Origin: Amphiscolops sp. MND2022
Taxonomy: Eukaryota
Assembly: GCA_964187785.1 (NCBI GenBank)
Contig: OZ076409.1
Location: 31,620,001 to 31,684,000 of the forward strand
Direction of reading: 5' to 3'
Length of the DNA stretch: 64,000 nt
A model generated the notes under the pieces. It was not told the origin of the DNA, did no database searches, and worked only from the letters and a program-made list of their open reading frames with translations. This document shows, piece by piece, positions 29,598 to 55,830 of this stretch. Each line of letters starts with the position of its first letter. The stretch's first letter is position 1. The translations under genes and the position numbers were made by a program.

Positions 29598-29611
29598 TAT
29601 TTACTTAAATT

Positions 29612-35104: not shown

Positions 35105-35111
35105 CCATTTA

Positions 35112-35870: not shown

Positions 35871-36166
35871 TTTTTGCACATGACGAAGTCAATGTGCATT
35901 GCAGTCCAGCTAAGAAAGTTTTTTTTTCCACAATAGCCAACTTCATAATAAGCGCCTTTTAGAGAAAAGCCAAAACCCCAGAGAGATTCGAACCTGCAGC
36001 CTCCCGATTGCGCGGCATAAGTGTTAACCACTGTGCCATAAGGACGTTTTTGAATAAAGTTGAACTGTTGAATATATACGCATGCGATTAAAATAATATA
36101 TATACGCATATTAAAATAATCCTTGTCTTCGTCATGTGTTGCGAAGCACCGCTTCGCCTCTGTGTT
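35871..36166 (+). mobile_element. HINE-B: ~295-bp non-autonomous Helentron-like element inserted in the Polinton B right TIR
   Basis: 12-bp sub-terminal inverted repeats CACATGACGAAG (35877-35888) / CTTCGTCATGTG (36127-36138). 3' hairpin GCGAAGC-ACC-GCTTCGC (36141-36157). T-run ends. Absent from the left-TIR copy at 22478-22587. Confidence 0.75.
35975..36046 (-). pseudogene. tRNA-derived sequence (Pol III A and B boxes) inside HINE-B
   Basis: Minus strand TGGCACAGTGGTTAA (A box) and GGTTCGAATC (B box) at canonical tRNA spacing. The anticodon arm does not pair, so not a functional tRNA. Second copy at ~55455-55525. Confidence 0.7.
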
Positions 36167-36677
36167 AATTTTGGCCTGATCTAAGGAGGGAATTCTCTTA
36201 CTACTTTTCAAGCCTGGAGTGTCCTAACTTTGATTTTTTGGCACGGCACTATGCGACTTTCCAAAAGATTTTTCTCAGAAATAAGGGTGTTTAATGTTTT
36301 AAGCTAGGGAAAAGTGTTTTCCGAGCGTGATGAGCCCCCTCAGATATTTTTTCGGAACACTGCGATTTACCGGAGATTTGAAAAACAAATCTGAAAAGTT
36401 TCCGAAAAAATAATTAATATTAAAATAATATATATACGCATATTAAAATAATCGTTGTCTTCGTCATGTGTTGCGAAGCACCGCTTCGCCTCTGTGTTAA
36501 TTTTGGCCTGATCTAAGGAGGGAATTCTCTTACTACTTTTCAAGCCTGGAGTGTCCTAACTTTGATTTTTTGGCACGGCACTGTGCGACTTTCCAAAAGA
36601 TTTTTCTCAGAAATAAGGGTGTTTAATGTTTTAAGCTAGGGAAAAGTGTTTTCCGAGCGTGATGAGCCCCCTCAGAT
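36088..36677. repeat. 332-bp-period tandem duplication of the Polinton B right end plus flank
   Basis: The second AATTCTCTTACTACT ends at 36537, 332 nt after 36205. The copies are near-identical. Confidence 0.9.
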
Positions 36678-36861
36678 AATGTCGCCAGTTTTTTTAAAGC
36701 AACCTTGAGCATAGTTAAAAGCTTCTCGAACCTTGGACGGGTGCCGACCTCAAACGGTCCCGTCTTGACCCTTCAGCTGGGCGCCAATTTAGGCCGTTCT
36801 CGCTTGACTATAATTCATACAGACTTCTGTGACGAGACAACCAATACTTATATTTTTTCAG

Positions 36862-36896
36862 GGATGCTCGTTCGAAGAAGATTGAAATTTATTCGG
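36862..36896 (+). CDS. MORC2: MORC exon 3 (DARSKKIEIYS), 35 nt
   Basis: TTTTTTCAG| acceptor, |GTGAGT donor. Phases fit exon 2 (AA|G=Lys) and exon 4 (G|AG=Glu). Aligns to the MORC DADATRIDIYA segment. Confidence 0.85.
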
Positions 36897-37499
36897 GTGA
36901 GTCTGCTCCACTTCATCATCAAAAAACTTATGTCATAAAAAATTGAAGATTTTTCATTTTGATTCAATAAATATTGAAACGAAAAGGGTAAGACTTAATA
37001 CGTGTTCTAATGCCATAGTTTGAGAACGCATGTTTTTGGGATACCTGATTGAGTCAATTATGATCCGTTATGGGTTTGAAAACCACTTATAACTAGCTTT
37101 TTATTGGGAAATTCCTACCTTGTGTGTCATTTTTCAAAAATTAACTTTGACTTAATGAGTATTATCTTCACGAATCACATATATGTGTTGTGTTTACAAA
37201 TACTCTACTGAGTTTTTTTAATCTCTGGGATAGCAGGAATAATATAGACAGTGTAAGGATGAGTTGTTCAAACGGGTATGTTTGTTAACCGAGTACCTAG
37301 TAGAAAAGAGTCAGATGTTTTATTCGGCAGTCTAAGCGTGAGATCTAATATCTCAAGCTTCTGGCCACTTAATCTTTGACAAAACGCGAGCGTCCGCCAC
37401 CGCATCAATGAATCGAACGAATGGTATTCGGACGCCGAGAGCTTCACATGTATTCCAATACGAATGCAAAGCGTCATACACGCTTAGTAGTTGTATTCT

Positions 37500-37950
37500 T
37501 TTGTTCAACCAGGTATCTCGAAATTACTCGGACCAAAATCCCTAAATTACTCGACTCGGTACAGGCTTGAATATGGGCGGATTACTCTGTAAATTACTCG
37601 AAAAAAGAACGAAATTAATCACCAAAATTTCAATTTTTTCGGCGTCGACATACAGAAATAGTAAATGCAATGTTTCAGGAGCAAGTTTTTGTCGATCTTT
37701 AATTGAAACCTTGTTGAAATAAAAGAATACTGTCTCAACTGAGGCGGAAGATGGAACAATAAATCCGAATGTCATCGCAAGAGAATACATCTTCCAGATT
37801 CAAGCGGCAACTCTTTCCCAAAACCCGCCAATTTCTTCAAGTATTGCTTGGATGTATATGCTATTTCTCAGAAATACAGGCTTATTACGCGGTTTCACTC
37901 GCTAAACTGTAGTTGGTCAGTTTACTCGTAACATGACTCGGAAATACTCG
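37500..37950 (-). mobile_element. hAT transposon 3' remnant (C-terminal dimerisation domain, sub-terminal TTACTCG repeats)
   Basis: GFW.R......YSLA....VPSSASVETVF.....KDRQKLAPETL.LL.L resembles hATC. AATTACTCG is repeated at ~37520, 37545 and 37590. Confidence 0.7.
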
Positions 37951-38201
37951 CCGAATAATAATGACATGCCTGTGTTCAACTAATGAAGCATATCGTCCGG
38001 GAAAATCAATGACGGTGTAAACTGGTAGAATTATTAACGGTGCGCTTTATAATGATTTGACCGAATTGTTTACCTTGTAAACGGAGTGATACATTGCATC
38101 TTTTTTTGAACTTTCATGGTAATGATTATTGTAGCCTAGAGCAGAAATAACACTGAGCCCTCCAGGGGCCTATTTTGAATTATATAGTTTTCCTGGACGT
38201 A

Positions 38202-39018
38202 TTTTCAGTCGGCGCTTACGAAGTAACAGTCGCTATAGCAGTGGCTTTTTCTAGAAACGCGAAGTGATAAATTCGATCAGAAATGATTAATGCAGTAACT
38301 TAACAGCCACTTGGCCGAGAGGTTAACCCAGATTTTTTGAGTTTTTTGCTTGCAAAAGTAGAGGGGAGAACAAAATTTTTTTCTGCAATATGTCACTTTT
38401 TTCTGAACTTTTAGAACCAAAGTGCCGCATCTTGATTTTTAGCGTAGGCGAGCATAGAAGGCTACCTTATATTTTTTCGGAACACTGCGATTTACCGGAG
38501 ATTTGAAAAACAAATCTGAAAAGTTTCCGAAAAAAATCTCCCAATTTTTTTTCGAGTCCTAATTCTTTTCCGAGTCCTAAGGATGACCTCTTTGTTTGAT
38601 TTTTTTTTGTACTGTGGAACCGATGGTACCCCCTTGGCTTGTCAAACAGCTCCCGTTCACTTTTTGAAAAGTGTTTGGCTTGGTTTTCCGAATTGCGGGG
38701 GTCTCCTTTTGAGTTTTTCGTCTTTGCGTCGTCGAAAATTTTTTCATTTGGTCAAAGGTTACCCTCTTCTCTTTCATTTTTTTTCAGTTTGAAAAAAAGC
38801 GTTTTGCCAGCTTAAAGGCACTGTGAGACATTTTCTTGAAAAACAATCTTTTCAAAAAAAAGTCATTTTCCCAATTGGAAAAAACGGTTTTCTAGTCTTT
38901 TCGTTATCTTCCTTCGGTGTTTTCCGGCACTGTAAGTTTGATGAATTTTTGCATATCTAGAAAGCATGGTTTTTCAAACCTTGAGCGGGGCTCCGATTTG
39001 GGTCGTTCTCGCTTTGTT
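38202..39018 (+). mobile_element. HINE-A degenerate copy
   Basis: TTTTCAGTCGGCGC at the 5' end (38207-38215), GGCACTGT subrepeats, 3' GCTCCGATTTGGGTCGTTCTCGCTTTGTT. Confidence 0.55.
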
Positions 39019-39093
39019 GTAACTGTGATGAAAAACAAAAAAACTAGGACACTTTAGAAATCAGAGTTTCCATTAATTGAAACCTATTTTCAG

Positions 39094-39162
39094 AGAGCAA
39101 CGAAGACTTGAGAGGAGGCTATATGTTGTGCTTCCTCGACGATGGATGTGGCATGGGAAGGG
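39094..39162 (+). CDS. MORC2: MORC exon 4 (SNEDLRGGYMLCFLDDGCGMGR; GHKL DxGxG box), 69 nt
   Basis: TATTTTCAG| acceptor, |GTAAGT donor. Matches the MORC EDLRGGFMLCFLDDGAGM motif. Confidence 0.95.
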
Positions 39163-39234
39163 GTAAGTTTCTCACTTTCGCCATCATAGCATAGCTTGCA
39201 AAATCTTCCTAGTGAATTTTTCATTTCAAAAATT

Positions 39235-40860
39235 AATTTACTTTGTAATCATGGTTAAGAGCTATTCGGAATAAATGAACTAACTTACAAGTTTAAAACA
39301 AATCATATGAAGCATAATGTACATCATCTTCAACAAACATCAAGTTCAACGAAAGGAAAAATAAACAATTTCGAAGTTATGAAAAGTATGTTCTCTAGGA
39401 AAAAAATACTAGTCTAATCTTAAGTTCGTTTATAAAAAATTTGAATGTTTAATGGTGTTCCATTCCATGAGCATACGATAGTAGATACTAAAAATTTGAG
39501 TTTCAAAGAGGCCCTGTCGTTGAAGAAAAACTTCCAATTTCGGCTTTGGAGGCCATTGCGTAAACCCCGCGTTTTTTGCATTCCATGACCAAGTGATAAA
39601 TCATTTCAAGTTCTTCATCGCATTGGGAGCAAATGGGATGAGGGACTAAGTTTCTCAACCGCTTTTCCTGTTTATCTATGATACTTCCCATCAAAAAACC
39701 AATTTTTTCGGGAAGCTAGCAAAGATTCCAGGTTCCATAACTTTTGAACGGTTTCCTTAACTTTTGACCAGGTTTTTACTTCTCATGCCTTATTTTTGAG
39801 CCCTGCAGAAAGTCTATCTATCGCCTTTGTTCGGTCACAAAATTCCATCAGAAAGCTAAAAAATCTCTGGTTTTCGTCTCTGCCGTGATTTCTTTTTCGA
39901 GGCGCCCTTGTTTAATCAGCAGATTGTGGTCTCTGATTTTCAAAGTTCTTTTCTTTTTGCATTCAATTTTCAATCTTTCGCGAAGAAATAAAGAGCTCTG
40001 GCAAAAATTTTCTACTAGATTTCGATTTTTCTCTTGAAAGTAAAGTTCCTTCAAACTCATGATTTTACACGCTGTAACTAAAACCGAAAGGTTTTTGAGC
40101 CTGAGACCACATTCTTTCAACTCCAAGTGTAGGATCTCAGAATTGACTCTGTTTTTTATTTTGCCAGAATTGGTTAATTAGGTCGCGATTCAACTTTCCT
40201 AGCAGTTTTTTAATTAATAAGATGTGTCAGTCTATGATTAAGTCTGCAGATTACGAATACTTCAATTTTTATTGATCTGGCTTTGTAGGACATGGACTGC
40301 AGGGCATATCGAGAAGCTTTTCTAGCAATTTCGGCTAGACTGTCGGAAAAGCGGGTATTATGGTTAATGGTCCAAATATGTACTCCAAGAACTGTAATAG
40401 TTTTTGACGGAGTAATATTTTTAGGTAGTATACCATTGGTGGCTATTCCAGCTTTGGTGTCATTAATTTCCAATCCTGAAATGGTTTTAGTGATCGAAGG
40501 CAGCAAAAAAACGGAGGCTAGTCGATGCTAACTCCTGCAGTTATATCGTCAGCATAAGCAAGAGTTTTTTTTGGTCATTTTCGGAGAGTATCTCTTTTCT
40601 GACTGTATCTGTCGTAACAAAAGTTCTAGACCGACTTTGAATAAAAGAGCAGATAGCGGACATCCTTGTCTCGCACCCCTTTCAATTGATAGTGGAAGCG
40701 ACAAAAAACCGTTCAATCTTAATCTAGTATCCAGATGTTTGTATCGTAGTCATCATCGGTGAGCTCATATGCAAAAAGTAATCTATGGTCTGAAAAAGAC
40801 GTTTGTATCAAATCAAGAATTTGGTTATGCTTAGTCGGATAGCAGTAGATAAAATCTAGT
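39235..40860 (-). mobile_element. Tx1/L1-clade LINE ORF2 remnant (endonuclease and first half of RT deleted)
   Basis: RGARQGCPLSALLF, AYADD, SGLEIN..K, and C-terminal CSQC...E.I.HL..EC zinc motif. Many stops. Confidence 0.75.
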
Positions 40861-40945
40861 TGAGACCGTTGTTTGGTACGTTTGTGGTAGTGTGCGGGAG
40901 AAACGGGAGGGTTGTTTTTTGCCAGATCGCGGAAACCAAAAGAAT

Positions 40946-41821
40946 TTAGAGTGGAGACAGGTTTTTATACTTTATATATAGTGGCCGAGTGTGGGGAGAG
41001 TTGGATGTTTCATCTGCAAATGCTTGAAACTTGTTTTTTGCTGGCGTTGAAATTGAGGTTAGCACTTGAGCCTTTTCTCTTTTCCTGCGGTTTCTCGTCT
41101 GTTGATACCATGAACCATCGTCGTGTTCAGTTTCTCCACCATCTGGTTCAATCGCTCCATCCTCTCGTTCATCATCATTATTGTCATTCGGTGGTGCAGT
41201 GTTCTGATCTCTTTGTTCATCATTGTCATCAGCTGTCATTTTCTCTTCAAATGGTACTACAGGACGCGAGGTGACTGGTCTTCTTTTACGGTACCATGCT
41301 TCATCGTGTCCAAAAATTTCGCGCCCTGATTGTGTTGAACAAATTGAGCAGGAATGTAGTCGTAGTACATTTGCTCTGATGGTAATTCCATGCCAATTCC
41401 TTGTATCAGAAATACCATTGGCTCTGGACCAGTCTTTCAGAATAGTCTCTTCCTCTTCGCTTTTGACTTGGAGTGTTGCGTTAGCTGTTCCTATGTAGAC
41501 CACTCCGACTTCTGTTGTAACTGTGTGCCTGTTTATTTCTGAAAGAATGTCTCCGCATGACATTTGAATAACCTCAAGCAATTCTTCATCACCGCATAAG
41601 ATTGGTAATCCTTCAATCCGTAAAGTGAACTTTTTTGGGTACATTGATGGACTGTACTGCCATATTTCGTCAGCGGTAGGAAGCATTGTACGATTTAGAA
41701 TTTGTAGTCCTGTGAGCTGCATGTTTGCTACTTCTTCCTCTGCTTCTATGGGGGCAGTAACCATGAAGGTTTGCTGCTTCCGGTTGCCAATGATTGTGTG
41801 AGTCTTTGCAATCGTTATCAT
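40946..41821 (-). CDS. Tx1/L1-like ORF1 protein (RRM-like region, degenerate zinc knuckle, acidic tail), open for 291 aa
   Basis: Lies directly 5' of the ORF2 remnant on the same strand. LRIEGLP and CSIC......GH.E.. patterns. Confidence 0.6.
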   Translation of the reverse strand: MITIAKTHTIIGNRKQQTFMVTAPIEAEEEVANMQLTGLQILNRTMLPTADEIWQYSPSMYPKKFTLRIEGLPILCGDEELLEVIQMSCGDILSEINRHTVTTEVGVVYIGTANATLQVKSEEEETILKDWSRANGISDTRNWHGITIRANVLRLHSCSICSTQSGREIFGHDEAWYRKRRPVTSRPVVPFEEKMTADDNDEQRDQNTAPPNDNNDDEREDGAIEPDGGETEHDDGSWYQQTRNRRKREKAQVLTSISTPAKNKFQAFADETSNSPHTRPLYIKYKNLSPL

Positions 41822-43119
41822 CGGTCGCTTTTTTAATGTGATTTTGTATGTCGAAATACATAGTAGTAGCTAGGAAAGACGAGAAGTTCAGATATTTTTA
41901 GTCCTCTACGAATTTTGCTGCTGTGAAACTTGCTGCTAGAGATATGAGCTGAGAGTGACAACCATACGACGACTGAGTGCACAATGAAGTAACCAATTTT
42001 TGCAATGACAGGTGGTTGACATTTTGTACCCACAATCACTTCCACGAGATAGATAATTCATGCTCATTGGACATATTGTAGCGAAACTCGAAATAGATGA
42101 AACTACTTAGCATGTACCGTTTTCTAGCGAATTTTAGAATAGCATTGAAATTGCACATGCTATAATGTATTGGCCTTTTTTACTAAAAGTCTCTTTTGAA
42201 CAAAACTGACTGAACTAGGGAGTTGAGTTCGCTTCATAGTGCTTTTTGATAAAGGATTATAACAAAATTACAGGCAATTCCTTTCCAAAGAAGATGAACG
42301 TATGGTGTGTAACAGGAAAATTAGCAAAACAAGCCGGGATCAGCATAAGTCGGCGCCATATCCAAGGCTCAAAAATAGCAAAAGGACGTCAAATTGTCAA
42401 GTGTTCTTCTGGAATACCTGGAAGTGTCAAGCATTCTTTTACAGTACGAAATTGGCGTACCTACCGAAAAATTCAGATTTTTTGTTTTCCGCACTGAGTA
42501 TAAGCGTGCGATTTAAATTTCTCAAGCTGCCGACGACATTTTGTTTCTCGTCCGATGAAACGAGTGAGTGGCAATTAAGCATTCGTACGCCGAATTCATT
42601 GAAATGAAGCGAGCAAAAGTTCGTAATTATGCTTCCGTACGCCGAGTTCTTGAAATGAAGCCACCGAGTGTTAATTAATCGTTCACCGAGAGCTTCGCCC
42701 GCAATCAAATGCGAATACGAAACTTCGTCTACGCTAAGTAGTTATATTTTCTTTAGTCCGAGAATTAAAGGCGGTGTAAACTGGTACAGTGAATAATTGT
42801 GCGCTATATAATGAATAATAAGCCAGGACCGGCCCAAGTCGGTGCCATTGCGATACATATCCCCGCAAGCAAGTTCCCAGATCTTGCGACTTGCAATAAT
42901 AACCAATCACAGTGAGTTATTATTATGAATACAGTTTTACACTTTTCTCATATTACACCAAGTGATAATTAGCTACACTGAATGACTAAAATTCACTAAT
43001 TGACAGATTTACACTATTTTCCGGTCCATAAATTTACACTAATTGACTGCGTTACGCACTTATGCAGTACTACGCACTTTGACTGAATTACGCCGTCTTA
43101 CTAATTACGTGGTGTAAAT

Positions 43120-45880
43120 TAGTCCAACAGATGCCAAGTGTTTTTATTGTATTCTTCCGAGAAAAGCGCAACTTCATCTGATGTTTCTCGGAGTTCAAGG
43201 GGTAGCTCCATTGTTAACTCAGGGTGACTTGACGTCTACTTTCCTAGCTCAAACCCAAAAACGGAAAGCTCAGTACATGTCTTTCATCAAATTACGCGCT
43301 TCTGTGATGGTGTTAGCACCACCGAGAAAGTCATCAACGTAAAAAGAATTATTGAGTACGTCAGCGACTGCATGGTTGTTTGTGCGATTAGCAACTTCCT
43401 TTAGGCTGCGAGTGGAGTGGAAAGCAGAAGAAACAATTCCGTAGATAACTCGCTTCATTCGCATGTTTCCCTTTTTCATCTTTTTTGCTGCGCCACAGAA
43501 GACGATGGAAGTCTCTGTCAGGTGCATCTAGTTCAACCTGACGGTACATTTTGGCAATGTCCGCTGATAGCGCTATAGGCTTGTAGCGGAATTGATTCAG
43601 AATAGTAAACAAATCATTCTGAAGACTGGTCCAACCACGAGACTTTCGTTCAGTGAAAGTCCATTCGAAGTCTTGGCAGAACCATCGAAGACTACACGTA
43701 ACTTCGTTGTTGTTGAGTCTTCCTTGAAGACACAATGATGAGGTAGATTATAAACTGCACTATCAGGTTTGCTGATCTCATTTTCAGGAAAGACTTCCAT
43801 GTGGTCGAGTGAAACCAATTCGTCAACAAAAGCACCATACCGTTTTTTTTATTTCGGGACTAGTGTCCAATCGACGTTCCAGTGAACTGAATCTGCGTTG
43901 AGCTTGAGTTAGGCTTTCACCCAAAATTGCATCTTCTTTGAATGGCAACTTGACTACAAAACGATTGTCGAAAACCCTTGTGGTTTCTTGAAAGATTTTC
44001 TTACGTCTCTTCTTCAGTTGGCAAATTTCTTTCAGGCAGAGTCTCAAATTCCCAAAATTTTCTCAAAGTTTCGTCTGTTGAGGCATGTCAAGAGATGAAA
44101 GAATTTGATGATTCGTTTTGTTTTCCAATCAATACCCATCCAAAAATCGTTTTACGTGAAAACAAACCAGCGAAAGCTCCCGGCGTTGATTTTCCATCAA
44201 TTCTTCGAAGACATCCGCACCTAATATCATGTCGACTGGCTTAGAGATATTGAAATTGGGATCAGCCAAAGAGATATTGGTAGGTGTGGAAGGAATTTTC
44301 AGAAGTAGACTCGGTATGCTATTTGTTAGTTTCAAAATGTACGCAGATACATTGACTTGTTTCGACCCAGATTTCAAAACAAGTTTTACACGACCCGCTT
44401 TAACATCTTTTGCCTTGTCGCCGATGCCACTCAGGTTCAAGTTTACATCATCTTTGTTTATATTCAATGCATCAGCCAATTTTCCAGTGATAAAGCTAAG
44501 TTGCGAGCCACTATCCAATAAAGCCCGGCAGTGTACAAGTTCATTTTGCGAAACCAATACAGAAACAATAGCAGTAGGAAGAATTGTCGTGTAACTTGAC
44601 TCTTGATGATGTCCTGTAAATTGAGGATCGTCGTTTGTTGTGTTTTCAGCTAGGTGAACAGAGGCAGTATCAACTCGATGTAATAATGTGTTTTTTGTTG
44701 CAGGTTTGGCAAAATTTTTTCGAGGTTCCACTCTTTATACTGTGACCTTCCTTAAAACAGTTAAAGCAAAGCCTAAGATCTTTAATCTGATGATGTCGTT
44801 CAGTAATTGATAAGGATAAAAACGATGGAGAGGTATAAATCCGATGTGCTTTTTTTACACACAGGACAAGACATTGAATTGGACTGATAACTTCGGCAGG
44901 ATTGTCTTTCGACTTTTTCTCCCGCGTTATCTCGCCAGTGGCTTCTAGAGATCGACCAGATGCCTCTAATGCACGAGCACGACGTTCGAGAAACTTTCTC
45001 AGTTGCTCCATTGACTTCAGTTTTCCATCAGCATTGCTCAACTGCCATTCACGAGCAGTTTCAGCATCTACTTTTTGGAAAGTATATGCACCCAAACGAA
45101 GTCGCAACTTTTCGTGTCAATTCCCAAAGCACTAAGAGCCATCTCATTCTCATTAAAAATACCAATGAGTTTCCTCAGACTGTCCGCACTGTCTTTCTTC
45201 ATCGAATCAATCTCGAAAATGTGATTCAAATGCGCTTTCGTGATCAGAAACTATCGTATCGATCTTCCAGGAGTTGAATCGCTGCATCATAATTTGCTTC
45301 AGTTGTAGTCAAATTAGAAAGAACACGTTTAGCTTCACCTTTCAGAGCACCTTTGAGATAGTAAAGCTTTTGTACTTTGGGTAAAGATTGCTGTTCGTGC
45401 ACAGTACCTTTAAACATATCAAAGAATGTTTTCCAATCTTTATACTGACCATCAAAAGAAGGCAGTTCAATTCGAGGAAATCGAACATTGTCACGGTGGT
45501 TTGAGCCAAGCGATGAAGTTCCGTCGATATCAGATTTATGTTCTGTAATCCACTTTTGAAAACTTTTTTTACCTCAGTTTCAATTTCATCTTGTTTGAAT
45601 TTCCGCTTCTAAGGCCTCGTCGGAAGATTCAGTAATATCGAGAATCTTGAAATTGATTTCTCCGATTTTGGCTATTTTTTCAGTCAGCGATGCTAACAGT
45701 GTTTCTGCTGGTAATCTGTCATCCGGTGTTATTTCGTCAATGGGCTTCATTTTCAATTTGTCGAAAGTTGCCCTTTCGAGTAACAACGCCCATATGAGCC
45801 TTTCGAGAGGCTGAGTCTTCCTTTCGTCGGAAATTGTAGTCATGTTCTATGTTTTTCAACTGAGGACGAAGGAATTATCG
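43120..45880 (-). mobile_element. BEL/Pao fragment 2 (gag, protease, RT to KTLGI.W), 3'-truncated
   Basis: RIELPSFDGQYKDW..F; CF.C...GH..; RALLDSGSQLSFIT; RRFSSLERRL; LPHH.V.K..STTTKLRVVFDGS; DIAKMYRQV; FYVDDFLGG. Confidence 0.92.
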
Positions 45881-46109: not shown

Positions 46110-46571
46110 CTTTTGCGAAAGCTCCAAGTCGTAAAGGTAATGAGATATGCCAACAAAAACTATGGGTTGCTTCTGTAAATTGCGAAAAGCGGTAAGCTCA
46201 GCGTTCAATTTCAAAACTTTATGCTATGTTTCTTCAGTACCTCGAGGCGGTACTCCATTAATGTAAACAGTTGAAGTGCGCAAAAGAAGTGGTCGAGCAA
46301 GTTCAAATATTCCTGTTGCAACTTCAATTGGCTCTTGAGCTGATCGAAAAGTGCCGTTTTTCGATAGGAAATTCTCTAATGCGTTACCCCCCACAAATAA
46401 TATAATCTTCTCAAACCTATTGAAGGGTGGTAGAAAATCCCAAAGATCTTGAGGGCGAGCTCCAGGTACAGACAAAACGTCAAATGAAATTGTTTTCAAC
46501 CTTTTCAGAAGTGAATCTGACAGAATCAAAAATTTTGAGCCGTTCTTCAGGTAAATACTTTTTCGTACCAT
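46110..46571 (-). pseudogene. SGNH/GDSL-hydrolase-fold remnant
   Basis: FLILSDSL (block I), VLSVPGA (block II), IILFVGGNAL (block III), then GVPPR. Frameshifted 3' part. Confidence 0.65.
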
Positions 46572-46899
46572 ATGAAAGAATTAGGAACGATCTAACCCAT
46601 ATCACGTCGAGAGGGTCACCAAAATGTAGAATTCTGCTGCACTGGCAGTTGTTCTTTGTTAGCGCTATGGCTAGATAGCAAAAACTCTTTGACGAAACTA
46701 ATTTCTTTTTGATCAAAGTGACTAATATCAAAGATTTGAAGGCAAACAATGAATCAAAGTATTTCGCGCTAAAAGTCATTCAATATTCATGAAAAGTTTT
46801 CATCAGTTTTTATAAAAGTGTGCATGCGTCAAATCATGAGTTATTAAAGTAAAATGAAATAATATTCAACATGTGGAACATTGCTCAGAACTGTCACGC

Positions 46900-47200
46900 A
46901 TTGACGAAGGCTCGATAAAAAACAGCAAAAGACATTGCTCAAATGAAAGATAGCTAATTCAAGAACAGTTTGCGTTGCTATGCTGATTGGTACTCACTGC
47001 AGAGAGAAATCCAAGCAAATTGGTATAATTCTTCCCCAAGTGAGATCAATTGATAAGGTGACTGCTGTTTGTGACATGTGTGCAGAAAAGTGCATCCATC
47101 TGCGGAACCAGCGGAAATATCAATTGATGGCCCAGAAGATTTCATCGCTCGGTACCGCGAGTGCTGGAAACTTGAGACTGAGCGTTTCAACCTCAGTTAA
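46900..47200 (+). pseudogene. TK1: Thymidine kinase (TK1/type II family) pseudogene fragment, intronless
   Basis: IDEG (Walker B, 46900-46911); RTVCVAMLIGTHCREKSKQIGIILPQVRSIDKVTAVCDMC aligns without gaps to TK1 [40 protein letters not shown] as recalled (17/40 identical by my count); after a frameshift IDGPEDFIARYRECW corresponds to IGGADKY..VCR.CY. P-loop region absent. Confidence 0.8.
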
Positions 47201-47521
47201 TCCATTCCCTAGCTTCATTACCAAGTATTACTATGAATTTCATTTCCATAGATTATGAAAAATTCGAGTTCAAATTCGAAATTTTCCCAAAAAACACGGA
47301 AGAGTGAGCACTTTGTTTACCAAAATCAAAATAGTAAACCAATCCTGTAAAAGTGGAAGCGTTTGCTGAATATTGATGGTAGGTGTTCTGCCAGTAAGGT
47401 GAGAGTGTCAAAAAAGTTTGTGTTACAGAGGTTTCATTCAAAACCACACTTGTAGTTTAGGAAACTGCATGAGTAATTTACAATTTTGGTCTTTCTGTAC
47501 TGAAGTTGCAATGGCTAGGTG

Positions 47522-48105
47522 TTTTCAGTCGGCGCTTTTGAAGAAAAAAGCTCGACTGTTACAGTGGGTAGTTTTTTAGACGCGTAAGGTCCACTTTTTT
47601 GTTCACCAACAAATGGTATTTGTTCAACAACTTGAGCTACGGAGGTTCAAAACACTCTAAACACCAGAACCTCGTCCAAAACAAAAAGAAACAAAATCGA
47701 CATCCAGAACCTCGAGAACATACTAAAGATAACCCCTTTAGCTATTTTGGTGTTTTTCATTTTGATTTTTTGTCGGCACTATGATTTTTAATTTTTTTTT
47801 GAATTGTGCCAAAGGATACCCCTTCATTTGTTTCGATATTTTGCAACAGAATGGATGTTAAAAAATCCCAAAGGGTCCCCCTTTTACATTTTTTGGCACT
47901 GTGACACTGTTCAAAAATCTCAATTTTTGTTTGTTTTTCAAAATTTTTGTAAAGTCTCCAAAATGTCCTCCTTTAATTTTTTTTTCATATTTTGCAACAA
48001 ACTGGAGTTTCAAAAAGCCCAAAGAGTTCCCCCTTTTACAATTTTGAAAAATTTGCGCTTTTTGAGTCTTAGATATAGCGCCGATTGTGACCGTTCCCGG
48101 CTTGT
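47522..48105 (+). mobile_element. HINE-A copy
   Basis: AGTCGGCGC (47527-47535) ... GCGCCGATT (48078-48086) sub-terminal IRs. CCG-TTCC-CGG hairpin then CTTGT. Internal AAGGGTCCCC/GGCACTGTG subrepeats. Confidence 0.7.
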
Positions 48106-48160
48106 AAGCATCTACAGACAAATTAAAAGCCACCAAGGTCAGTTGATTTGATGTTTTTAG

Positions 48161-48251
48161 AGGAAGCGCACCATGTAATAACATTTGGAAGGTCTGCAAA
48201 GAAAGCCATGGATACCAGTGTTATTGGACAATACGGGAATGGGCTAAAATC
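48161..48251 (+). CDS. MORC2: MORC exon 5 (EAHHVITFGRSAKKAMDTSVIGQYGNGLKS), 91 nt
   Basis: GTTTTTAG| acceptor, TC|GTGAGT donor. Matches the MORC IQFGKSAK...IGQYGNGLKS motif. Confidence 0.95.
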
Positions 48252-48583
48252 GTGAGTTGTTTTTGTTACGTATATTGATTTGTCTAAAATTTCGCCTGGT
48301 AAGCTCAAATATCAAAACTTGAAATTAGTCCGATGAGTCGAATTCAGACAATAATTTCTTCATTATTTTACACCAATGCCAGCAGCTAGACCAGATTTAT
48401 TTTGTTGAACGGATGCTAGATGTTCCGAATTTAATGATATAATTTTACAGTTCGCCATTTTTTTTCATTCAAGGCGAAGAAGTTCTTTTGTTCAGGTGAC
48501 TTGTGTACAGCTTGAATGATTTAGTAATCCGCAGTGACTTCATTTCCAACGATTTATTTGGTTTGCTATTTGTTTTGTTATAG

Positions 48584-48767
48584 TGGATCTATGAGAGTAG
48601 CCAAGGATTTCATTGTATTTTCAAAAACCAAAGATTTATGCACATGCATTTACATGTCGAGAACATTCCACGAAGACGAGAAGATTGACGAAGTTATTGT
48701 GCCAATTCCTTCTTGGGACGTTAAAACCAGAAAACCTTATCCTTCCACACCCGATGACCTTCAGAAG
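48584..48767 (+). CDS. MORC2: MORC exon 6 ([14 protein letters not shown]...[20 protein letters not shown]...LQK), 184 nt
   Basis: TTTTGTTATAG| acceptor, AAG|GTGAGT donor. Matches MORC2-type GSMRIGKDFILF...[20 protein letters not shown]. The six exons total 495 nt (165 codons) with no stop. The next exon was not found in the window. Confidence 0.95.
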
Positions 48768-48887
48768 GTGAGTCATTTTCTCTATACAAAGTCATTTCTT
48801 TCTAGTAAAGTTGCTTTCCCCATACAAAACAATTTGTCACAAAACAAGTTTTTTATTGGGTGTGTTGAAATTTTAGTTTCGTATTGC

Positions 48888-49166
48888 ACAGTTTCAGTTT
48901 CAACAATGTGAAGCTTTTCAACTCATCGTATCACAATTTTATTTTTGATGTCAAGCGGCCTGCTTATATAAGTTGCGAATTGATTTACGGGGCATTACAA
49001 TCCGGGCGGACATTCACTACTAATTACTGATTAGTAGTGAATGTCCGCCCGAAATGTAATGCCCCGTAAATCAATTCGCAACTTATATAAGCAGGCCGCT
49101 TGACATCAAAAATAAAATTGTGATACGATGAGTTGAAAAGCTTCACATTGTTGAAACTGAAACTGT
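48888..49166. repeat. Near-perfect palindrome: 137-bp arms, 5-nt loop, 2 mismatches
   Basis: 48888-49024 is the reverse complement of 49030-49166. Centre ...CATTCACTACTAAT-TACTG-ATTAGTAGTGAATG... Confidence 0.97.
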
Positions 49167-49170
49167 CTAG

Positions 49171-49826
49171 TAGATCTGAGGACACCCTATAGATGGAACT
49201 AATTTCTATCAACAGATAGCACGAAAAAGTGCTAGAAACGGTTTCGCAAAAGGTGAAAACTCGTGTCCAATGATAACTTCTGCAATTCAGCATCGTCTGC
49301 ACATCTGATGCCCGACTTTACTGGCCAATGACCTCGCAATGAACACGGTGACCAGATACAAGCTCATTTAACGCCGCATTTTCTACATGGCGATCGAGGC
49401 TTGTTCAACATCACCACAAAATCGAAATTGACGTGGAACGATCATTCCCAAAGATCAGACACGTTGTCGATCAGTTAGGTATCAATTGCGTGAGATGGAG
49501 CTTTTGAAAATATCTCGACGTTTGTTTCATCTAATTTGAATCAAGAACATTTGCGGACATTCACTACTAATTAGATTTGAGGACACCCTATAGATGGAAC
49601 GAATCTCTATCAACAGATAGCACGAAAAAGGTGCTAGAAACGGTTTCGCAAAAGGTGAAAACTCGTGTCCAATGATATTTTCTGGAAATGGCGCTTTTGA
49701 AAATATCTCGACGTTTGTTTGATCTAATTTGAATCAATATCTCAATGGGCGGACATTCACTACTAATTAGATCCGAGGATACCCTATAGATGAAACGAAT
49801 TTCTGTCAAAAAATAGAACGAAAAAG
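49171..49826 (+). repeat. Tandem array (units ~400, ~198 and partial) each ending GCGGACATTCACTACTAAT
   Basis: Repeated TAGAT..GAGGA.ACCCTATAGATG...GAAAACTCGTGTCCAATGATA; boundaries near 49570 and 49768. Confidence 0.85.
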
Positions 49827-52800
49827 TGCCCCTTTCAGCGAAAACAAAAACACCAAAACTGAAAGGTTACAAGGCGTACAAAATGGACAGGAGGAAAGGC
49901 CGGTCACGAGACACGCTCATAAGAGGGGGAGTAATGACTCTGGTCAAGGAAGGTCTACAACATAGACCACTGAAAGAAAGCTTTACAGTTGCAAATGATG
50001 TCACTACGGACGCCCTAGGGATCAGTGTCAAGGGGGCTGTTCAGGACCTAAAATGTATAAACCTATATATTCCACCAATCAGGGAAGGCTCAACAGACGA
50101 TCGAACACAAAACTTCTCTACCCGAAGACTCCCAGTGGACGCTGCCACGATTATAGCCGCAGATGCAAACGCCCACAGCCTGTACTGGGATTATCTAGAA
50201 GAGAATACAATCAGCAAGCAACTGGCCGAATGGATGGAAGATGAGGAATTAGTGACCCTAAACGACTACAGCAGAACGAGGACATGTCCAAGTACAGGAA
50301 ACGGGTCTGCACCGGACGTCACTATTGTACACTGTAGATTGTCGCGAAGATGCACTTGGAGAGCCTTTAAAGACCCTCTATCCTCGGATCACCATCCTAT
50401 GGTCACAGAAGGTACCTTCAAGCCAATTAGAATACGCAGAAAACAAATACGCCGATTTACCACTCGCAGAGCAAACTGGACTCTGTTCAAGGAAGAAACA
50501 GATCGCCTTCTCTCTGAAACTAAACCGGATTCAGGAAAGCTAAACTCTAAATGCGAATGGCTACAGAAATCGCTTCTAGAAGCTGCAAAGAAAGCTATTC
50601 CATTTGGGAGCTCTGGAACAACCAGTAAATGGTTTACTTCGTCATGCAAGCAAGCGATTCAAAGACGAAACAGAGCATTCCGAGAGTTTCAACGCGAACC
50701 CAACAATCCAAATAAACTGAAAACCTGGAAAGACAGATGCCGTGGAGTGAAGAAGGAAGTAAAAGAAGCAAAGCAGCAAGCTTGGCGCTCGTTTGTTGAC
50801 CGGATGGACATGAGAACAAACCCCTCGAAGATCTGGCGAACAATCAAGGAAATAGATGGTCAGAAATCAGAGACAAAGACCGGCGCCGCTCTGGTCAAAG
50901 ATGGCAAACTCCTGGAAGATAGCACAGAAAAAGCTAACGGGTTCATCAAAGAATACACAAAGGTCTCCTGTATTCAGAACAGGAAGGAAGACAGACCTTT
51001 CGTGAAACTACTGAAGAGAAAACTGAGAAGTGAGTGTGAATGCAAATCGAGCACGGAAGCCGGAAATTGTTGCAAACCTTTCTCTTTAGCTGAACTACAG
51101 CAATGCATTAACCAAGTGCAGTCGAAAAGCGCACCAGGAAATGACCAAATCTCCAATGCAATGCTCAAACACATGTCACCCAAAGCCATGGAAACCATGC
51201 TGGACATCATGAACCATTCATTAAGAGAAAATGTTTTCCCAACGACATGAAAGAAAGCAACCATCATTCCACTACTTAAACCTGGAAAAGACCCGGAAAA
51301 ACTCGGGTCGTATAGACCAATCTGCCGTACTTCGTGCCTCGGGAAACTACTGGAAAGGTCAATGAAGAGTAGACTCATGTTCATTCTTGAGTCAAACGGA
51401 AAACTCAAACCTGAACAGACGGGATTCCGAAAGCTCAGATCAACGCAAGACCAGATGCTGAGAATGACGCAAGATATCGCAGATGGACTCAACAAACCAA
51501 AACCCGCCAAGAGAACAGTATTATGTCTGATCGACTTCTCGAGGGCGTTCGACTCCGTGTGGCACCCAGGATTACTTCACAAACTGCTAAAGATGGACCT
51601 CCCAATATGTTATGTGAAATGGATCAAATCCTTCCTGCAAGACCGGAGCACTAGTGTCAGATTTAAAAATGTAAACAGCAGGTATCGACGGTTCAAAGCT
51701 GGAACACCTCAAGGCTCAATGATCTCGCCCTGTATCTTTATCATTTTTATAAACGACATTCTCGACGATTTACCAGAAGGAGTGAAAGCTTCCTTATTTG
51801 CTGATCTAGCATTATGGGTTTCGGACGAGATTCTAGAGAAAGCCCAAGAGAAACTGCAAAATGCGTTGGTTGTGCTAAGCAAATGGTGCAAGAAATGAAG
51901 ATTAAATGTCAACGTCGAAAAATGTGAGTCTGTTTTCTTCAGCATGGCTCCACAGGAAGCAAGATGGAAGCCAACACTTTACTTTGACGATAATTAAATA
52001 CTGTTTAACCCGGTCCCTCTTTCCTTGGAATCAAATTCGACCGGACGCTGTCATTCAGGCCACACACACAAGCGCTCCAAGAAAAGCTGCACAAGAGGAT
52101 AAACGTGCTCAAAAGCCTTGCAGGAAGAACTTGGGGAATGGTAAAGGAAGAACTCAGAGCGGTCTACATCACATACATTTCCTCTTCAATCGATTACTGC
52201 GCAGCCGCTTACCTACCGGCGATGCCAAAAACTATTCTCGACAAGTTGCAAATTTTGCAAAACTCTGCTGCGAGGATCATAACAGGCTGCTGTCGAGATA
52301 CGCCGGTGGATTTGTTAAATGTAGAAGCAAGCCCGACACCGATCCAGGTCAAAGCGGAAATTAAAGCAGCATGTGCATATGACAAAAGTCTGCGCCAACC
52401 GACAGACAACCCAACTGTAGAACCGGCGAAGGCCTACGTTCGTCGCAGACTCAAGTCACAACCGTCATGGAGCGAATCGGCTAAGGAAACACTCAGTACT
52501 CATAATCTATTGAACCTACCACGGTAAAAGCTCTATCAACGCAGCAACACGACCCCGTGGGATCTGATCAACAGGAACCATGAGTGACCAATTAATCAAG
52601 AAATGCTCGAAACGAGACCCAGCAAAAACGCGCAACCTAGCGGCAACGCAAACACTACAGGCTCTACCCGTCCCAGATGTACAACTGTGGACCGATGGTT
52701 CAGCAGTACAAAGCACCACCAACGGAGGAGGCGTGGTTCTGATCTTTGGAAACGAAATGGGGGAAATTGAACTACTAGCTCCAGCTGGCCTAATCTCCTC

Positions 52801-53545
52801 TAGTTACAGGGCTGAATACGTTGCCTTCAAGACCGCACTTGAGTGGATAAGAAATAACCCGGAGTTCGTTGAAGGGAAAACTGTCCACATTTACACGGAC
52901 TCAAAGTCGCTAGTCAACAAACTACAAGCTGGACCCCACGTGGCAAGAGAAACCACGGAGTTAGAAACCTGGGATCTCCTGAAAGATTGTAGTAACACGA
53001 CGAAAGAAATCCACATCCAATGGATACCGGGTCACGCGAAACTCAGAGACAACGAATCGGCAGACAGAATAGACCGACTTGCCACCAGACTAGACCAAAC
53101 ACTTCAACCGCTCGACATCTCAACACAGGCAGCTATCAAACGAAGCATCACAAGAACATGGAAAAGATCAATCCACCACGACAAAATCCCACAAGCAGGG
53201 AACACACCGCCTAACCAGAAAGAAAGGGAATTAGCAAGAACTGATAGAATCACTCTCCCAGTTGAGAGCAGGCGGCCACTGCCCTATGCTGCGAAGCTAC
53301 AGATACCGCATCGGAATTTACGACTCCGACAAGTGCGAATGCGGCGAAACAGACGACCTGCAACATGCACTTCTGAAATGCCCAATGAATGAAGGAAAAC
53401 GATTAGAAATATTTGGCCCAAACCGGAACCTCGAAATACTATGGACGAACCCGAAGTCTGTCATCAATTACCTTCGTGCCTCTGGAAAAAACCAGACGAC
53501 TGCGGCCTAACGGTCGAAGACGGGAGCTTCTACACACACATACAC
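49826..53545 (+). mobile_element. I-group LINE (APE endonuclease, RT, RNase H, C-terminal CCHC), 5'-truncated, few disablements, (CA)n-like tail
   Basis: IIAADANAH and SDHHP (APE); YRPIC.TSCLGKLLER, GFRKLRST, DFSRAFDSVWH, GTPQGS, LFAD (RT); WTDGS, YRAE, YTDSKS, WIPGH (RNase H); CECGETDDLQHALLKC; tail CTACACACACATACACAC. Confidence 0.93.
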
Positions 53546-55830
53546 ACGAACACATGTTCTGCTTTCACACAAAATTTAACCAGGAAACAAAACTCACTAA
53601 GCGACATTTGCTCTCGGAGACAGCGAAGCTATGCGACCTCATCGGCTTGTTATGACCAATCATATTAGTTCAAAATACTTCTTCAGAAACTTTGGATACG
53701 TGGAATAGGTTGGCACACAATGCTTCCAGATGTCATCCAACAGCAATGGCGTGGCATGAAGACAGATTTGGCAACACTACACATTCACATTGAAGAAATG
53801 CATCCATCCTCCCGCAAAGGTTGAAGAAATTCAGCTGCATCTATCTATTCACGGATGCCTCAGAAAGTACATACGCTGCTGTCATTTTCGCACGGATAGT
53901 CGACACAGAATGCTTTGTCTCTGTCAACATCAATACTCGGGAAAACCGCTCGTGAGGCCGAGAAAAACCGTATCATTACCACGCCTGCAACTCTGTTGAG
54001 CTCATCTTGGGGGAACCTTCTAACCAAGGTAAAGAAATCATAATGCTGAAATCTGTACAGCCACAACAGACATTCGTATGGACATGTCCCACAAATGTAC
54101 TGCAATGGGTGGCAACATTACCACGAACACGGACAACATTTGTTGCTAATCGTGTCTCAGATAAACAACAAGTTTTGCTAAGGTCAAATTGGAATCGTGT
54201 CCCCTCATCCACTAACCCAGCAAATTGTTCATCTCGAGGCACAACACTCTAAATACTGGAATCATCATCTATGTGGTGGAATGGTCCCACCTGGTTACAG
54301 AGACCACAAGAGAAGTGGCCGAAATCTCAAATACAAACGATGGAACCATCTGAGGTTAGAGATCACAGATGGCAAAAAACGTCTCTTTGCACAACAATCA
54401 CTCTTCAATCGAATGCAGTAACAACCGCCAAATGGATACTGGTACGACAAAATCAATTTTGCAGATGATTTCGCAGTCCTGAAACCAGGAAAAACTTTAT
54501 CTCGATAGAGTAAAGTTCTGAGCCTAACAACTTTCTATGACATTGAAATAGTGTGATTCTAGTAGGTGGAACACTTTCGCAAGGACAGTCTCGAGAATTG
54601 AAGTTGCCACTACTCGTGAGTCAAGTTTCTGGACTTGCCCACTTGGTACTTCTACAGTATAATGGCGCTACGCTCCATAAAGGGGCGGAATTAACAGTCA
54701 AATCCAGTAGAGTAGAGTTCTGGATCCAAACTGCCTAAGTCGTCGCCAACAACATCATCAAACAGTGGATCAAATGCAGTCGATTTGATAACAAGATACC
54801 CTATCAGCTCGTGGCTGATCTCCCAGCAGAACGTATTACCCCCGGTAAACTGTTCCAAACAGGTGGCTTGGATTTAGGCGGGCCAATTCAGCCGGGCGAA
54901 TCACATCGGAGTCAGAAACGACATTATCAGGGCATAAGAAATTCTGGCTCTAGAATGCAATGATAGACCAATTGCAACAAGAAACTATCGAATGGGAAAC
55001 AATACCTCCTTGGTCTCCCCATTTTGGAGGACTTGGGAAGCCGCAGTCAAGAGCATGGAACGTCATTTACGTCGCACTGTTGGTCTTCAAATAATATCGT
55101 TCGAACTTGGTCATACTAATTGAAGCAATTTTGAACCCAACACCGCTATCAGCTATGTCCAATGATCTTCAGCCGGTGTCTCAAAGGACCTTCAGCCAGT
55201 AACTCCTGCCCATTTTCTACTAAGGAGAGCTGCAAGAGATCTGTACGTGGTGTTCTCTGATTCCATTTCTTTGGGGCAGCCTTGGATGAAATCCTTGGTA
55301 CAGAGACTACTTGGCTACCCTTGAAATACGAAAACGATGGCTTCAATCCTGTCCTTTTTGCACATGAGAAGTCAATGTGCATTGCAGTCCAGCTAGGTAA
55401 GTTTTTTTCCACTATAGTCAACTTCATAATGAGCGCCTTTTAGAAAAAAGCCAAAACCCCAGAGAGATTCGAACCTGCAGCCTCCCGATTGCACGGCATA
55501 AGTGTTGACCACTGTGCCATAGGGACGTTATTGAACAAAGTTGAACTGTTGAATATTTACGCATGCGTTAAAAATAATATAAATACGCATATTAAAATAA
55601 TCGATGTCTTCGTCATGTGTTGTGAAGCACCGCTTCGCCTCTGTTTCAACGTAGGAGACTTAGTTTTAACCGCAGAGGCCAATTTGCCTTCATTAAGATG
55701 GAAAGTGGTGAGAATCACCCAGGTGTACTCAGGAATCGATCAAGTGAACAGAGCCGCAAAACTTTGAACGACCTCTGATGATGTCATCCGGCCAGTGGTG
55801 AAGCTCCCAGTCGACAACGCATCTCACTAA
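53546..55830 (+). mobile_element. BEL/Pao fragment 4 (RNase H, integrase, C-terminal DUF5641-like), interrupted by HINE-B
   Basis: TKRHLLSETAKL.D.IGLL; TDASE..YAAV; KTVSLPRL.LC; FVANRV; NPAN..SRG; WWNGPTWL; LPAERITP; SPHFGG; NVGDLVL...RPVVKL. Confidence 0.88.
55355..55645 (+). mobile_element. HINE-B second copy, inserted in a T-run of BEL fragment 4 without TSD
   Basis: Collinear with 35871-36166 (sub-terminal IRs, hairpin, tRNA-like segment). Flanks rejoin as KRWLQSCP/FNVGDLVL. Confidence 0.85.

What the first reader, a model, noticed from the sequence alone, without database searches (positions are those of the whole stretch)
35871..55645. HINE-B: a Helentron-like mini-element carrying a tRNA-derived Pol III promoter
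Two full copies (35871-36166, 55355-55645) share 12-bp sub-terminal IRs, a 3' 7-bp hairpin and T-run insertion sites without TSD, which is the established HINE/DINE-1 architecture. An empty site is visible in the left Polinton TIR, and the BEL frame rejoins across the second copy. Internally, on the opposite strand, lies a tRNA-like head with A box TGGCACAGTGG and B box GGTTCGAATC at canonical spacing. Inference: a rolling-circle element is spreading TFIIIC/Pol III sites (a SINE-Helitron hybrid) that could produce small RNAs or act as an insulator, here twice within the MORC locus.
Basis: partly seen in the sequence, partly recalled or inferred. Interest (0 to 1): 0.7.

Follow-up and report, generated by a model that had tools for sequence, protein, structure and literature searches.

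The report
Rolling-circle mini-transposon carrying decayed tRNA promoter
A 290-base non-coding jumping element of a known rolling-circle type, in what appears to be an acoel worm genome, carries a worn-out tRNA-derived promoter as cargo; the cargo is real and little reported, but nothing here shows that it is active or useful.

Summary
Two copies are real (35871-36166, 55355-55646; 92.8% identical). Copy A has full HINE/DINE-1 anatomy: 12-bp subterminal inverted repeats, a 5' inverted repeat, a 7-bp 3' stem and T-run flanks (0 of 100,000 shuffles). Copy B has one deletion in its 5' repeat and one mismatch in its stem. The antisense A-box/B-box pair is real: the only such pair in 64 kb, 0 of 20,000 shuffles. 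It lies in a 73-nt tRNA-length relic whose cloverleaf has collapsed (7-8 of 21 Watson-Crick pairs, against about 20 in real tRNAs; no Rfam hit), followed at once by T4 and T4/T6 runs. Insertion without duplication is not shown: the empty site has two mismatches at the junction, and the T-runs let the boundary slide. A SINE-length duplication is absent. Box conservation between the copies is not above background (P=0.19). The host looks like an acoel; copy A is in a MORC2 intron, while copy B's place in the gene is only inferred. Best reading: an ordinary Helentron-type non-autonomous element that acquired a SINE-head-like Pol III cassette once and spreads it as a passenger. Transcription or insulator function is untested.

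The parts
35871..36166 (+). Copy A, full HINE-type element (core 35876-36162 plus terminal T-runs whose ownership is ambiguous); lies in the right Polinton TIR and in the MORC2 intron 18262-36859
35877..35888 (+). 5' subterminal inverted repeat (12 bp), 1 nt inside a T5 run (35871-35875)
35892..35898 (+). Short 5' inverted repeat pairing with 35875-35881, 3 nt after the subTIR (DINE-1-type IR)
35919..35927 (-). A9 run on the minus strand (A7 at 55402-55408 in copy B), ending 125-127 nt from the start of the tRNA-like head; possible old SINE tail, with no convincing flanking duplication
35965..35975 (-). Two T4 runs directly after the tRNA-like 3' end (T4 and T6 at 55444-55456 in copy B); candidate Pol III terminators
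   Evidence: terminator role inferred
35973..36045 (-). 73-nt tRNA-length relic; acceptor stem partly kept (6 of 7 pairs counting G-U), D, anticodon and T stems decayed; positions 34-36 read CGC (TGC in copy B) in the ungapped register
35984..35994 (-). Pol III B box, 10 of 11 to the recalled consensus
36028..36038 (-). Pol III A box, full match to the recalled consensus
36072..36120 (.). AT-rich two-copy tandem repeat (period about 26), a minimal central repeat; includes a TATA-like word about 30 nt upstream of the head in copy A that is altered in copy B
36127..36138 (+). 3' subterminal inverted repeat
36141..36157 (+). 3' stem-loop (7-bp stem, 3-nt loop), 9 nt from the end
36419..36498 (+). 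Duplicated 3' end of copy A (no tRNA part), inside a 260-bp local duplication of 36087-36346 joined through a 67-bp piece identical to 38469-38535
55355..55646 (+). Copy B (core 55360-55643; T5 and T3 flanks), interrupting the DUF5641 end of a decayed BEL/Pao element
55361..55371 (+). Copy B 5' subTIR with a 1-nt deletion
55454..55526 (-). Copy B tRNA-length relic (A box 55509-55519, B box 55465-55475)
55608..55638 (+). Copy B 3' subTIR (55608-55619) and 3' stem-loop (55622-55638, one G-T pair)
22517..22521 (-). Paralogous empty site in the left Polinton TIR (about 22478-22612); two mismatches at the junction

Best explanation
A non-autonomous Helentron-type element (HINE / DINE-1-like), about 290 bp, copied in trans by a Rep/helicase from an autonomous partner elsewhere in the genome. 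The enzyme is inferred to recognise the subterminal repeats and hairpins and to paste copies into T-runs with no or at most a 2-4 nt duplication. An ancestor of the family acquired, once and in antisense, a tRNA-derived Pol III cassette. That cassette most likely passed through a SINE-head stage (promoter kept, cloverleaf lost), or less likely was a tRNA pseudogene captured at DNA level. It now rides as a passenger. If Pol III uses it at all, it would make a self-terminating RNA of about 70-85 nt that holds neither end of the element and so cannot mobilise it. Shown: ends, T-run sites, boxes, decayed cloverleaf, T-runs after the head. Inferred: rolling-circle mobilisation, the partner, the route of capture, any transcription.
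For: The ends match the published HINE/DINE-1 features (PMC4067079; PMC2374699; PMC7492417), with 0 of 100,000 shuffles giving all three motifs. Both copies share the same boundaries, about 120 nt upstream and 100 nt downstream of the tRNA relic, which fits DNA-level copying. No direct repeat longer than 5 nt straddles either site, and those found are T-rich. The boxes are non-random, and 121 of 121 prokaryotic loci fetched with a similar box pattern are tRNA genes. A tRNA model ranks the two copies first and second in the window (22.7 and 17.4 bits; next 10.3; real E. coli tRNAs 60-68, and 32 for tRNA-Leu). Stems are far more decayed than boxes: 7-8 of 21 Watson-Crick pairs against a median of 20 in 66 real tRNAs; P of boxes this intact 0.003-0.007 at the point estimate, the pattern expected of a SINE head. 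Helentrons capture internal fragments.
Against: No autonomous partner was found: 0 Rep or PIF1-type motif matches in six frames, apart from one generic P-loop-like match in the Polinton region, and no eukaryotic genome collection was available. Only two full copies exist, so terminal T counts and TSD cannot be settled, and a TGTT duplication reading of copy A is possible by eye. The box-versus-stem test weakens to P=0.10-0.15 at the upper confidence limit and is biased, because the boxes are why the segment was noticed. The tRNA model was trained on tRNAs chosen for these boxes, so its E-values are inflated. No flanking duplication supports a nested SINE insertion. Passenger status is an absence of evidence from two copies, not a demonstration.
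Confidence: 0.62

Rival explanations
1. Functional cassette: the HINE keeps a working, self-terminating Pol III unit because it helps the element (open chromatin, protection from silencing, or transcription towards the 5' end), like the 5S unit of plant Cassandra elements, and so seeds TFIIIC sites genome-wide.
For: The boxes are intact in both copies while the stems are decayed. T4 plus T4/T6 runs follow the head directly, and AT-rich DNA with a TATA-like word lies about 30 nt upstream in copy A. The three differences inside the relic all miss the boxes. Cassandra is a precedent for a non-autonomous element carrying conserved Pol III promoters (PMC7215508).
Against: Conservation between the copies is not significant (P=0.19 and 0.30). 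The TATA-like word is altered in copy B. DINE-1 elements lack Pol III boxes (PMC2374699), and the other HINE-like family in this window has no box pair, so the class does not need them. There are no expression or binding data.
Confidence: 0.15
2. A cut-and-paste MITE with subterminal repeats and a short TT (or 2-4 nt) target duplication, carrying the same cassette.
For: Copy B's flanks can be read as a TT duplication and copy A's as TGTT (sequence). DINE-1 was once read this way. The empty site is ambiguous.
Against: The ends are asymmetric, with a 3' stem-loop outside the 3' subTIR and a 5' IR. This layout was tied to Helentron partners in mite, Culex and Drosophila, where terminal T numbers vary without duplication. 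The two sites do not give the same duplication.
Confidence: 0.1
3. An ordinary tRNA-derived SINE: the whole unit retroposes and the T5 run is its A-tail on the minus strand.
For: A/B boxes with a decayed cloverleaf are typical of SINE heads, and the minus strand ends in A5 in both copies.
Against: Both copies include the same ~120 nt upstream of the head, which a Pol III transcript cannot contain. T4 runs follow the head at once. There is no TSD over 5 nt. The subTIRs and hairpins are far beyond chance.
Confidence: 0.04
4. The HINE is real but the boxes are a chance match noticed after the fact.
For: No Rfam tRNA hit; ARAGORN scores sit within the window's noise; the folding z-score of the relic is not significant.
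Against: 0 of 20,000 shuffles; exact ungapped tRNA spacing over 73 nt; acceptor stem 6 of 7 at the predicted place with the boxes held fixed (P about 0.02).
Confidence: 0.04

Closest known systems
HINE / DINE-1 non-autonomous Helentrons (Thomas, Vadnagara and Pritham 2014, PMC4067079; Yang and Barbash 2008, PMC2374699; oyster Cg_HINE, PMC7492417)
   Same: 11-15 bp subTIRs, a short 5' IR complementary to the 5' end, a 3' stem-loop just after the 3' subTIR, T-rich insertion sites with variable terminal T, no coding capacity, a short central tandem repeat.
   Different: No microsatellite. The subTIR matches none of the 15 listed families at 11 or more bases; it shares 8 bases with Helentron-Cq-31 (suggestive only). 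It carries tRNA-derived A/B boxes, which DINE-1 was reported to lack and which the HINE papers read here do not mention (0 occurrences of 'tRNA' or 'Pol III' in the main texts of PMC4067079 and PMC7492417). The partner is not identified.
Cassandra TRIM retrotransposons with 5S Pol III promoters (PMC7215508)
   Same: A non-autonomous element carrying an internal Pol III promoter derived from a small-RNA gene.
   Different: Cassandra is an LTR retroelement with 5S (type 1) boxes conserved across vascular plants. Here it is a DNA element with tRNA (type 2) boxes, antisense, with no shown conservation or transcription.
Arabidopsis tRNA-Cys cluster overlapping annotated Helitrons (PMC10701932)
   Same: Proposed capture of a tRNA gene by a rolling-circle element.
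   Different: There the tRNA genes are intact and tandem, and the three Helitron predictors run did not confirm the element; the authors say it would be the first non-coding RNA capture by a Helitron. Here the element's ends are clear, the copies are dispersed and the tRNA is degenerate.
tRNA-derived SINE heads (MetaSINE / V-SINE, PMC4824008)
   Same: A and B boxes kept within a tRNA-length region.
   Different: No central domain or LINE-like tail was recognised. There is no exact match to the A-box / D-loop words in the searchable supplement (file 1 not searched) and no evident match by eye to the bivalve V-SINE alignments in part 2 of 4 of file 2. Terminator-like T-runs follow the head.

Membership tests
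HINE / DINE-1-like non-autonomous Helentron | 11-15 bp subterminal inverted repeats, 5' copy 2-4 nt from the end | tested here: met
   Copy A 12 of 12; copy B has a 1-nt deletion
HINE / DINE-1-like non-autonomous Helentron | Short 5' IR (3-22 bp from the subTIR) or palindromic subTIR | tested here: met
   7-bp IR 3 nt after the subTIR; present in both copies
HINE / DINE-1-like non-autonomous Helentron | 3' stem-loop of 5-11 bp, 8-35 bp from the 3' end | tested here: met
   7-bp stem, 9 nt from the end; one G-T pair in copy B
HINE / DINE-1-like non-autonomous Helentron | Insertion in T-rich sites, at least TT on each side | tested here: met
   T5/TT and T5/T3; 2 of 2 sites
HINE / DINE-1-like non-autonomous Helentron | No target-site duplication | tested here: inconclusive
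   No repeat over 5 nt; empty site has 2 junction mismatches; BEL flanks colinear within one codon; a 2-4 nt duplication is not excluded
HINE / DINE-1-like non-autonomous Helentron | Autonomous Rep/helicase/endonuclease partner sharing the subTIR | not testable with these tools
   None in the window; no eukaryotic genome collection; 0 hits in the prokaryotic one
HINE / DINE-1-like non-autonomous Helentron | Named family membership (11 or more identical subTIR bases) | tested here: not met
   Best match 8 bases among the 15 subTIRs of Table S2; a new family of the kind, not a member of a listed one
Canonical Helitron | 5' TC, 3' CTRR, insertion between A and T | tested here: not met
   Ends and flanks
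tRNA-derived SINE | A and B boxes at tRNA spacing | tested here: met
tRNA-derived SINE | Element begins at the tRNA head | tested here: not met
   About 120 shared nt lie upstream of the head in both copies
tRNA-derived SINE | Variable TSD and 3' tail; no internal T4+ terminator | tested here: not met
   No TSD over 5 nt; T4 and T4/T6 directly after the head
Functional tRNA gene | Cloverleaf with four stems and U33 | tested here: not met
   7-8 of 21 Watson-Crick pairs, G at 33; ARAGORN 0 at default; no Rfam hit
Active Pol III / TFIIIC site | Factor occupancy or transcript | not testable with these tools
   No ChIP or RNA data available

The most novel reading that the evidence does not exclude
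A rolling-circle family in an acoel genome that keeps a complete, self-terminating tRNA-type Pol III unit under selection, the DNA-transposon counterpart of Cassandra. It would scatter thousands to tens of thousands of TFIIIC sites and 70-85 nt transcription units through the genome (about 13,000-33,000 copies if 2 per 64 kb were typical of a 0.4-1.1 Gb genome; 95% range about 1,500-120,000, biased upward by how the window was picked), with Pol III occupancy aiding the element's mobility or acting as chromatin boundaries.
Probability: 0.13. Interest if true: 0.72.

Novelty: new variant of a known kind. Interest (0 to 1): 0.38.

Why it matters
If the cassette is only cargo, this is a modest but clean example of non-coding (tRNA-derived) capture by a Helentron-type element, in a lineage (acoels) whose repeats are largely unclassified. 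It is also a caution for annotation, since such elements can be mislabelled as SINEs or tRNA pseudogenes. A 2023 paper treated non-coding RNA capture by a Helitron as unreported, and my ten searches found no HINE with A/B boxes, though nesting of SINE fragments in DNA transposons is commonplace (recalled). If the cassette is active and selected, it would show a DNA transposon using Pol III machinery and spreading TFIIIC sites without retroposition, which is directly testable with one genome assembly and one ChIP or small-RNA data set.

Tried and rejected
ARAGORN at default: 0 genes. At the 80% threshold the two copies are 2 of 29 window hits, so this was not used as support. Rfam over the whole window and over each copy: no tRNA; only chance-level hits. 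The per-copy E-value counts all 4,227 families, so this negative is less lenient than it looks. RNA folding of the relic: no cloverleaf, z from +0.8 to -1.3. DNA hairpin z-scores: significant only for copy A's 3' stem (z -3.5), borderline for its 5' end (-2.1), not for copy B. Search for other copies: none further in the window beyond the partial 3' end; 0 hits in prokaryotic genome contigs (expected); no eukaryotic collection was open, so genome-wide copies stayed unchecked. Rep/helicase motifs in the window: none. A generic HINE-architecture scan returned copy A (with either 3' end) and one inverted-duplication artefact at 4398-7027; it missed copy B, as its subTIR is damaged. Nested-SINE duplication around head and A-run: only A-rich 6-7-mers, rejected as support. 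The sigma-70 scan is irrelevant to a eukaryote. Terminal motifs in the literature: 5 unrelated papers, by their titles, with chance 12-mer hits; none in the Helentron paper's 10 supplements. Isotype could not be fixed: the ungapped register reads alanine anticodons, ARAGORN's alternative folds give Cys/Leu or His, and the closest of 66 prokaryotic tRNAs were Gly at 49 identities. A cluster look-up for names of the Bin3 relatives could not be made. Papers checked for SINE or tRNA cargo in Helitrons without result.
Full report
CONTEXT. The window is eukaryotic and TE-rich. A 60-residue exon at 48585-48764 is 83% identical to MORC2A of the acoel Symsagittifera roscoffensis; the other four hits are 48-65% (lineage). 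The host is therefore most likely an acoel (inference). That protein maps to six exons (18080-18142, 18208-18261, about 36860, about 39095-39163, 48161-48252, 48583-48767) covering residues 1-165 of 1128, and no later exon was found in the window. Copy A thus lies in the intron ending about 700 bp downstream. Copy B lies after the last visible exon and is intronic only if the gene continues past 64 kb. Pfam on 57 of the 88 ORFs of 100 aa or more shows a Polinton-like element (rve integrase, protein-primed polymerase), BEL/Pao remnants and a LINE with RNase H. Both copies are nested in such older elements, so their presence in MORC2 needs no special explanation.

THE ELEMENT. The copies at 35871-36166 and 55355-55646 are 92.8% identical, with 21 differences in 287 core columns. 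Copy A reads: T5, one base, a 12-bp subTIR (35877-35888), a 7-bp inverted repeat 3 nt later that folds back on the 5' end, an interior with a two-copy AT-rich repeat, the 3' subTIR (36127-36138), a 7-bp stem-loop (36141-36157), nine bases, ending in TT. All three motifs together occurred in 0 of 100,000 dinucleotide shuffles (singly 14, 979 and 2,237). This is the layout given for DINE-1 and HINE elements in PMC4067079 (read: parts 1-3 of 8, passages, supplement search and Table S2), PMC2374699 (passages) and PMC7492417 (passages). Copy B is slightly decayed: one base is missing from the 5' subTIR and the stem has a G-T pair. The subTIR matches none of the 15 listed families at the 11-base family criterion; it shares 8 bases with Helentron-Cq-31. 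A third 3' end at 36419-36498 is part of a 99% identical 260-bp duplication that includes 180 bp of flank and is joined through a 67-bp piece copied from 38469-38535. I read this as a repair or template-switch event, not a transposition.

TARGET SITES. No direct repeat over 5 nt straddles either insertion, so a SINE-type duplication is absent. The left Polinton TIR holds the empty site, but it differs at the two bases at the junction, and the right TIR has an extra insert of about 29 nt nearby. The BEL flanks, translated separately, match Pfam DUF5641 positions 17-34 (E 0.053) and 39-76 (E 6e-7), i.e. colinear within one codon, in an element that is otherwise riddled with stops and frameshifts. 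The eight flanking T's can be divided in any way, so frame continuity cannot tell no duplication from a TT duplication. The same ambiguity is described for HINEs. 'No TSD' is therefore compatible but unproven.

THE POL III CASSETTE. On the minus strand both copies carry a full-match A box and a 10-of-11 B box, 33 nt apart (consensus recalled). This is the only pair in the window at up to 1+2 mismatches (7 pairs at 2+2), and 0 of 20,000 shuffles of copy A match it. A covariance model built from the 66 distinct ones ranks the two copies first in the window (22.7 and 17.4 bits; next 10.3) but far below real tRNAs (60-68 bits for six E. coli tRNAs, 32 for tRNA-Leu). This model is biased towards the boxes. 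Against tRNA status: ARAGORN gives nothing at default and only noise-level scores when relaxed, Rfam gives no tRNA hit, and folding is unremarkable. In the ungapped 73-nt register only 7-8 of 21 pairs are Watson-Crick (13 with G-U), against a median of 20 in the 66 real tRNAs. The acceptor stem is the best kept, 6 of 7 with G-U (P about 0.02; Watson-Crick only, P 0.07-0.23). Boxes this intact beside stems this decayed are unlikely under uniform decay (P 0.003-0.007; 0.10-0.15 at the upper confidence limit; ascertainment applies). That suggests the promoter was under selection at some time, as in a SINE head, or still is. T4 and T4/T6 runs begin at about positions 71 and 78, so any Pol III transcript would stop at about 70-85 nt (inference from established Pol III termination at T4 or longer). 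An A7-9 run about 125 nt from the head start could be an old SINE tail, but no flanking duplication supports that. Between the two copies the boxes are unchanged, which is not significant (P=0.19; relic 3 of 73 against 18 of 214, P=0.30).

MECHANISM. Shown: HINE-type ends, T-run sites, identical boundaries well outside the tRNA relic, intact boxes, collapsed cloverleaf, T-runs after the head. Inferred: mobilisation in trans by a Helentron Rep/helicase (none in the window), a single antisense acquisition of a SINE-head-like or tRNA-pseudogene fragment, and passive amplification since. Internal capture by Helentrons and Helitrons is documented for gene fragments (PMC4067079; PMC6544945 passages; PMC12001565 passages). 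I put this at 0.62, a functionally retained cassette at 0.15, a MITE at 0.10, a plain SINE at 0.04 and chance boxes at 0.04.

COMPARISON AND NOVELTY. It works like a HINE and meets every structural feature I could test, except that the absence of a TSD is inconclusive and the partner is untestable here. It is not a canonical Helitron, not a SINE as a whole and not a tRNA gene. DINE-1 was reported to lack Pol III boxes. The nearest precedents are Cassandra with 5S promoters (PMC7215508, passages) and an unconfirmed Helitron-tRNA-Cys cluster in Arabidopsis (PMC10701932, passages). Ten searches of the open library found no HINE with tRNA-derived boxes. Subscription papers, Repbase and Dfam were not searchable, bioRxiv supplements were closed, and one supplement of PMC4824008 could not be searched (passages; supplements), so such a family may already be catalogued. 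Other papers were seen only as passages and added nothing; PMC10565955 (passages) gave the 407-1059 Mb acoelomorph genome range used for the rough copy estimate.

VERDICT. A real element of a known class with a real but degenerate tRNA-derived promoter inside: a new variant of a known kind, interest 0.38. The bold reading (selected, active Pol III unit; probability about 0.13) would deserve about 0.72 and is cheap to test with the whole assembly.

Noticed in passing
window 38207-39020, 47527-48100, 60556-61020 (and probably 12720-13340, 36740-36810): A second HINE-like family with a 13-bp subTIR-like word (exact at 38207 + and 60988 -; degenerate at 47527 and 60556), central tandem repeats of about 115-150 bp and 3' hairpins; it has no A/B-box pair.
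   Followed up: partly
window 22478-36205: Polinton-like element (integrase, protein-primed polymerase, zinc fingers) with short ~135-bp TIRs that are themselves internally palindromic; no 6-bp duplication is visible, and both flanks carry a 94-bp direct repeat related to the second family's repeat unit, suggesting insertion into a tandem array.
   Followed up: partly
window 30540-34569: Three head-to-tail copies of a 1342-bp unit, 99% identical, each with a 265-aa stop-free frame without Pfam match, inside the Polinton.
   Followed up: no
window 36087-36678 with 38469-38535: Recent 260-bp duplication joined by a 67-bp templated insert copied from 2 kb downstream; looks like a replication template switch or end-joining repair.
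   Followed up: partly
window 48888-49166: Near-perfect 137-bp-arm palindrome with a 5-nt spacer, about 120 bp after a MORC2 exon (I12).
   Followed up: no
window 34-9694: Large nested foldback structure: many inverted arms at 86-96% identity around a 2-kb internal duplication.
   Followed up: no
window 49817-53540: LINE with endonuclease, reverse transcriptase and RNase H, ending in a (CA)n tail, directly upstream of the BEL remnant that holds copy B.
   Followed up: no
window 10515-11273: Intronless-looking Bin3/MePCE methyltransferase reading frame about 7 kb upstream of the MORC2 start.
   Followed up: no
window 18080-48767: MORC2-like gene with very short exons and 2-18 kb TE-filled introns; only residues 1-165 of about 1128 lie in the window.
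   Followed up: yes
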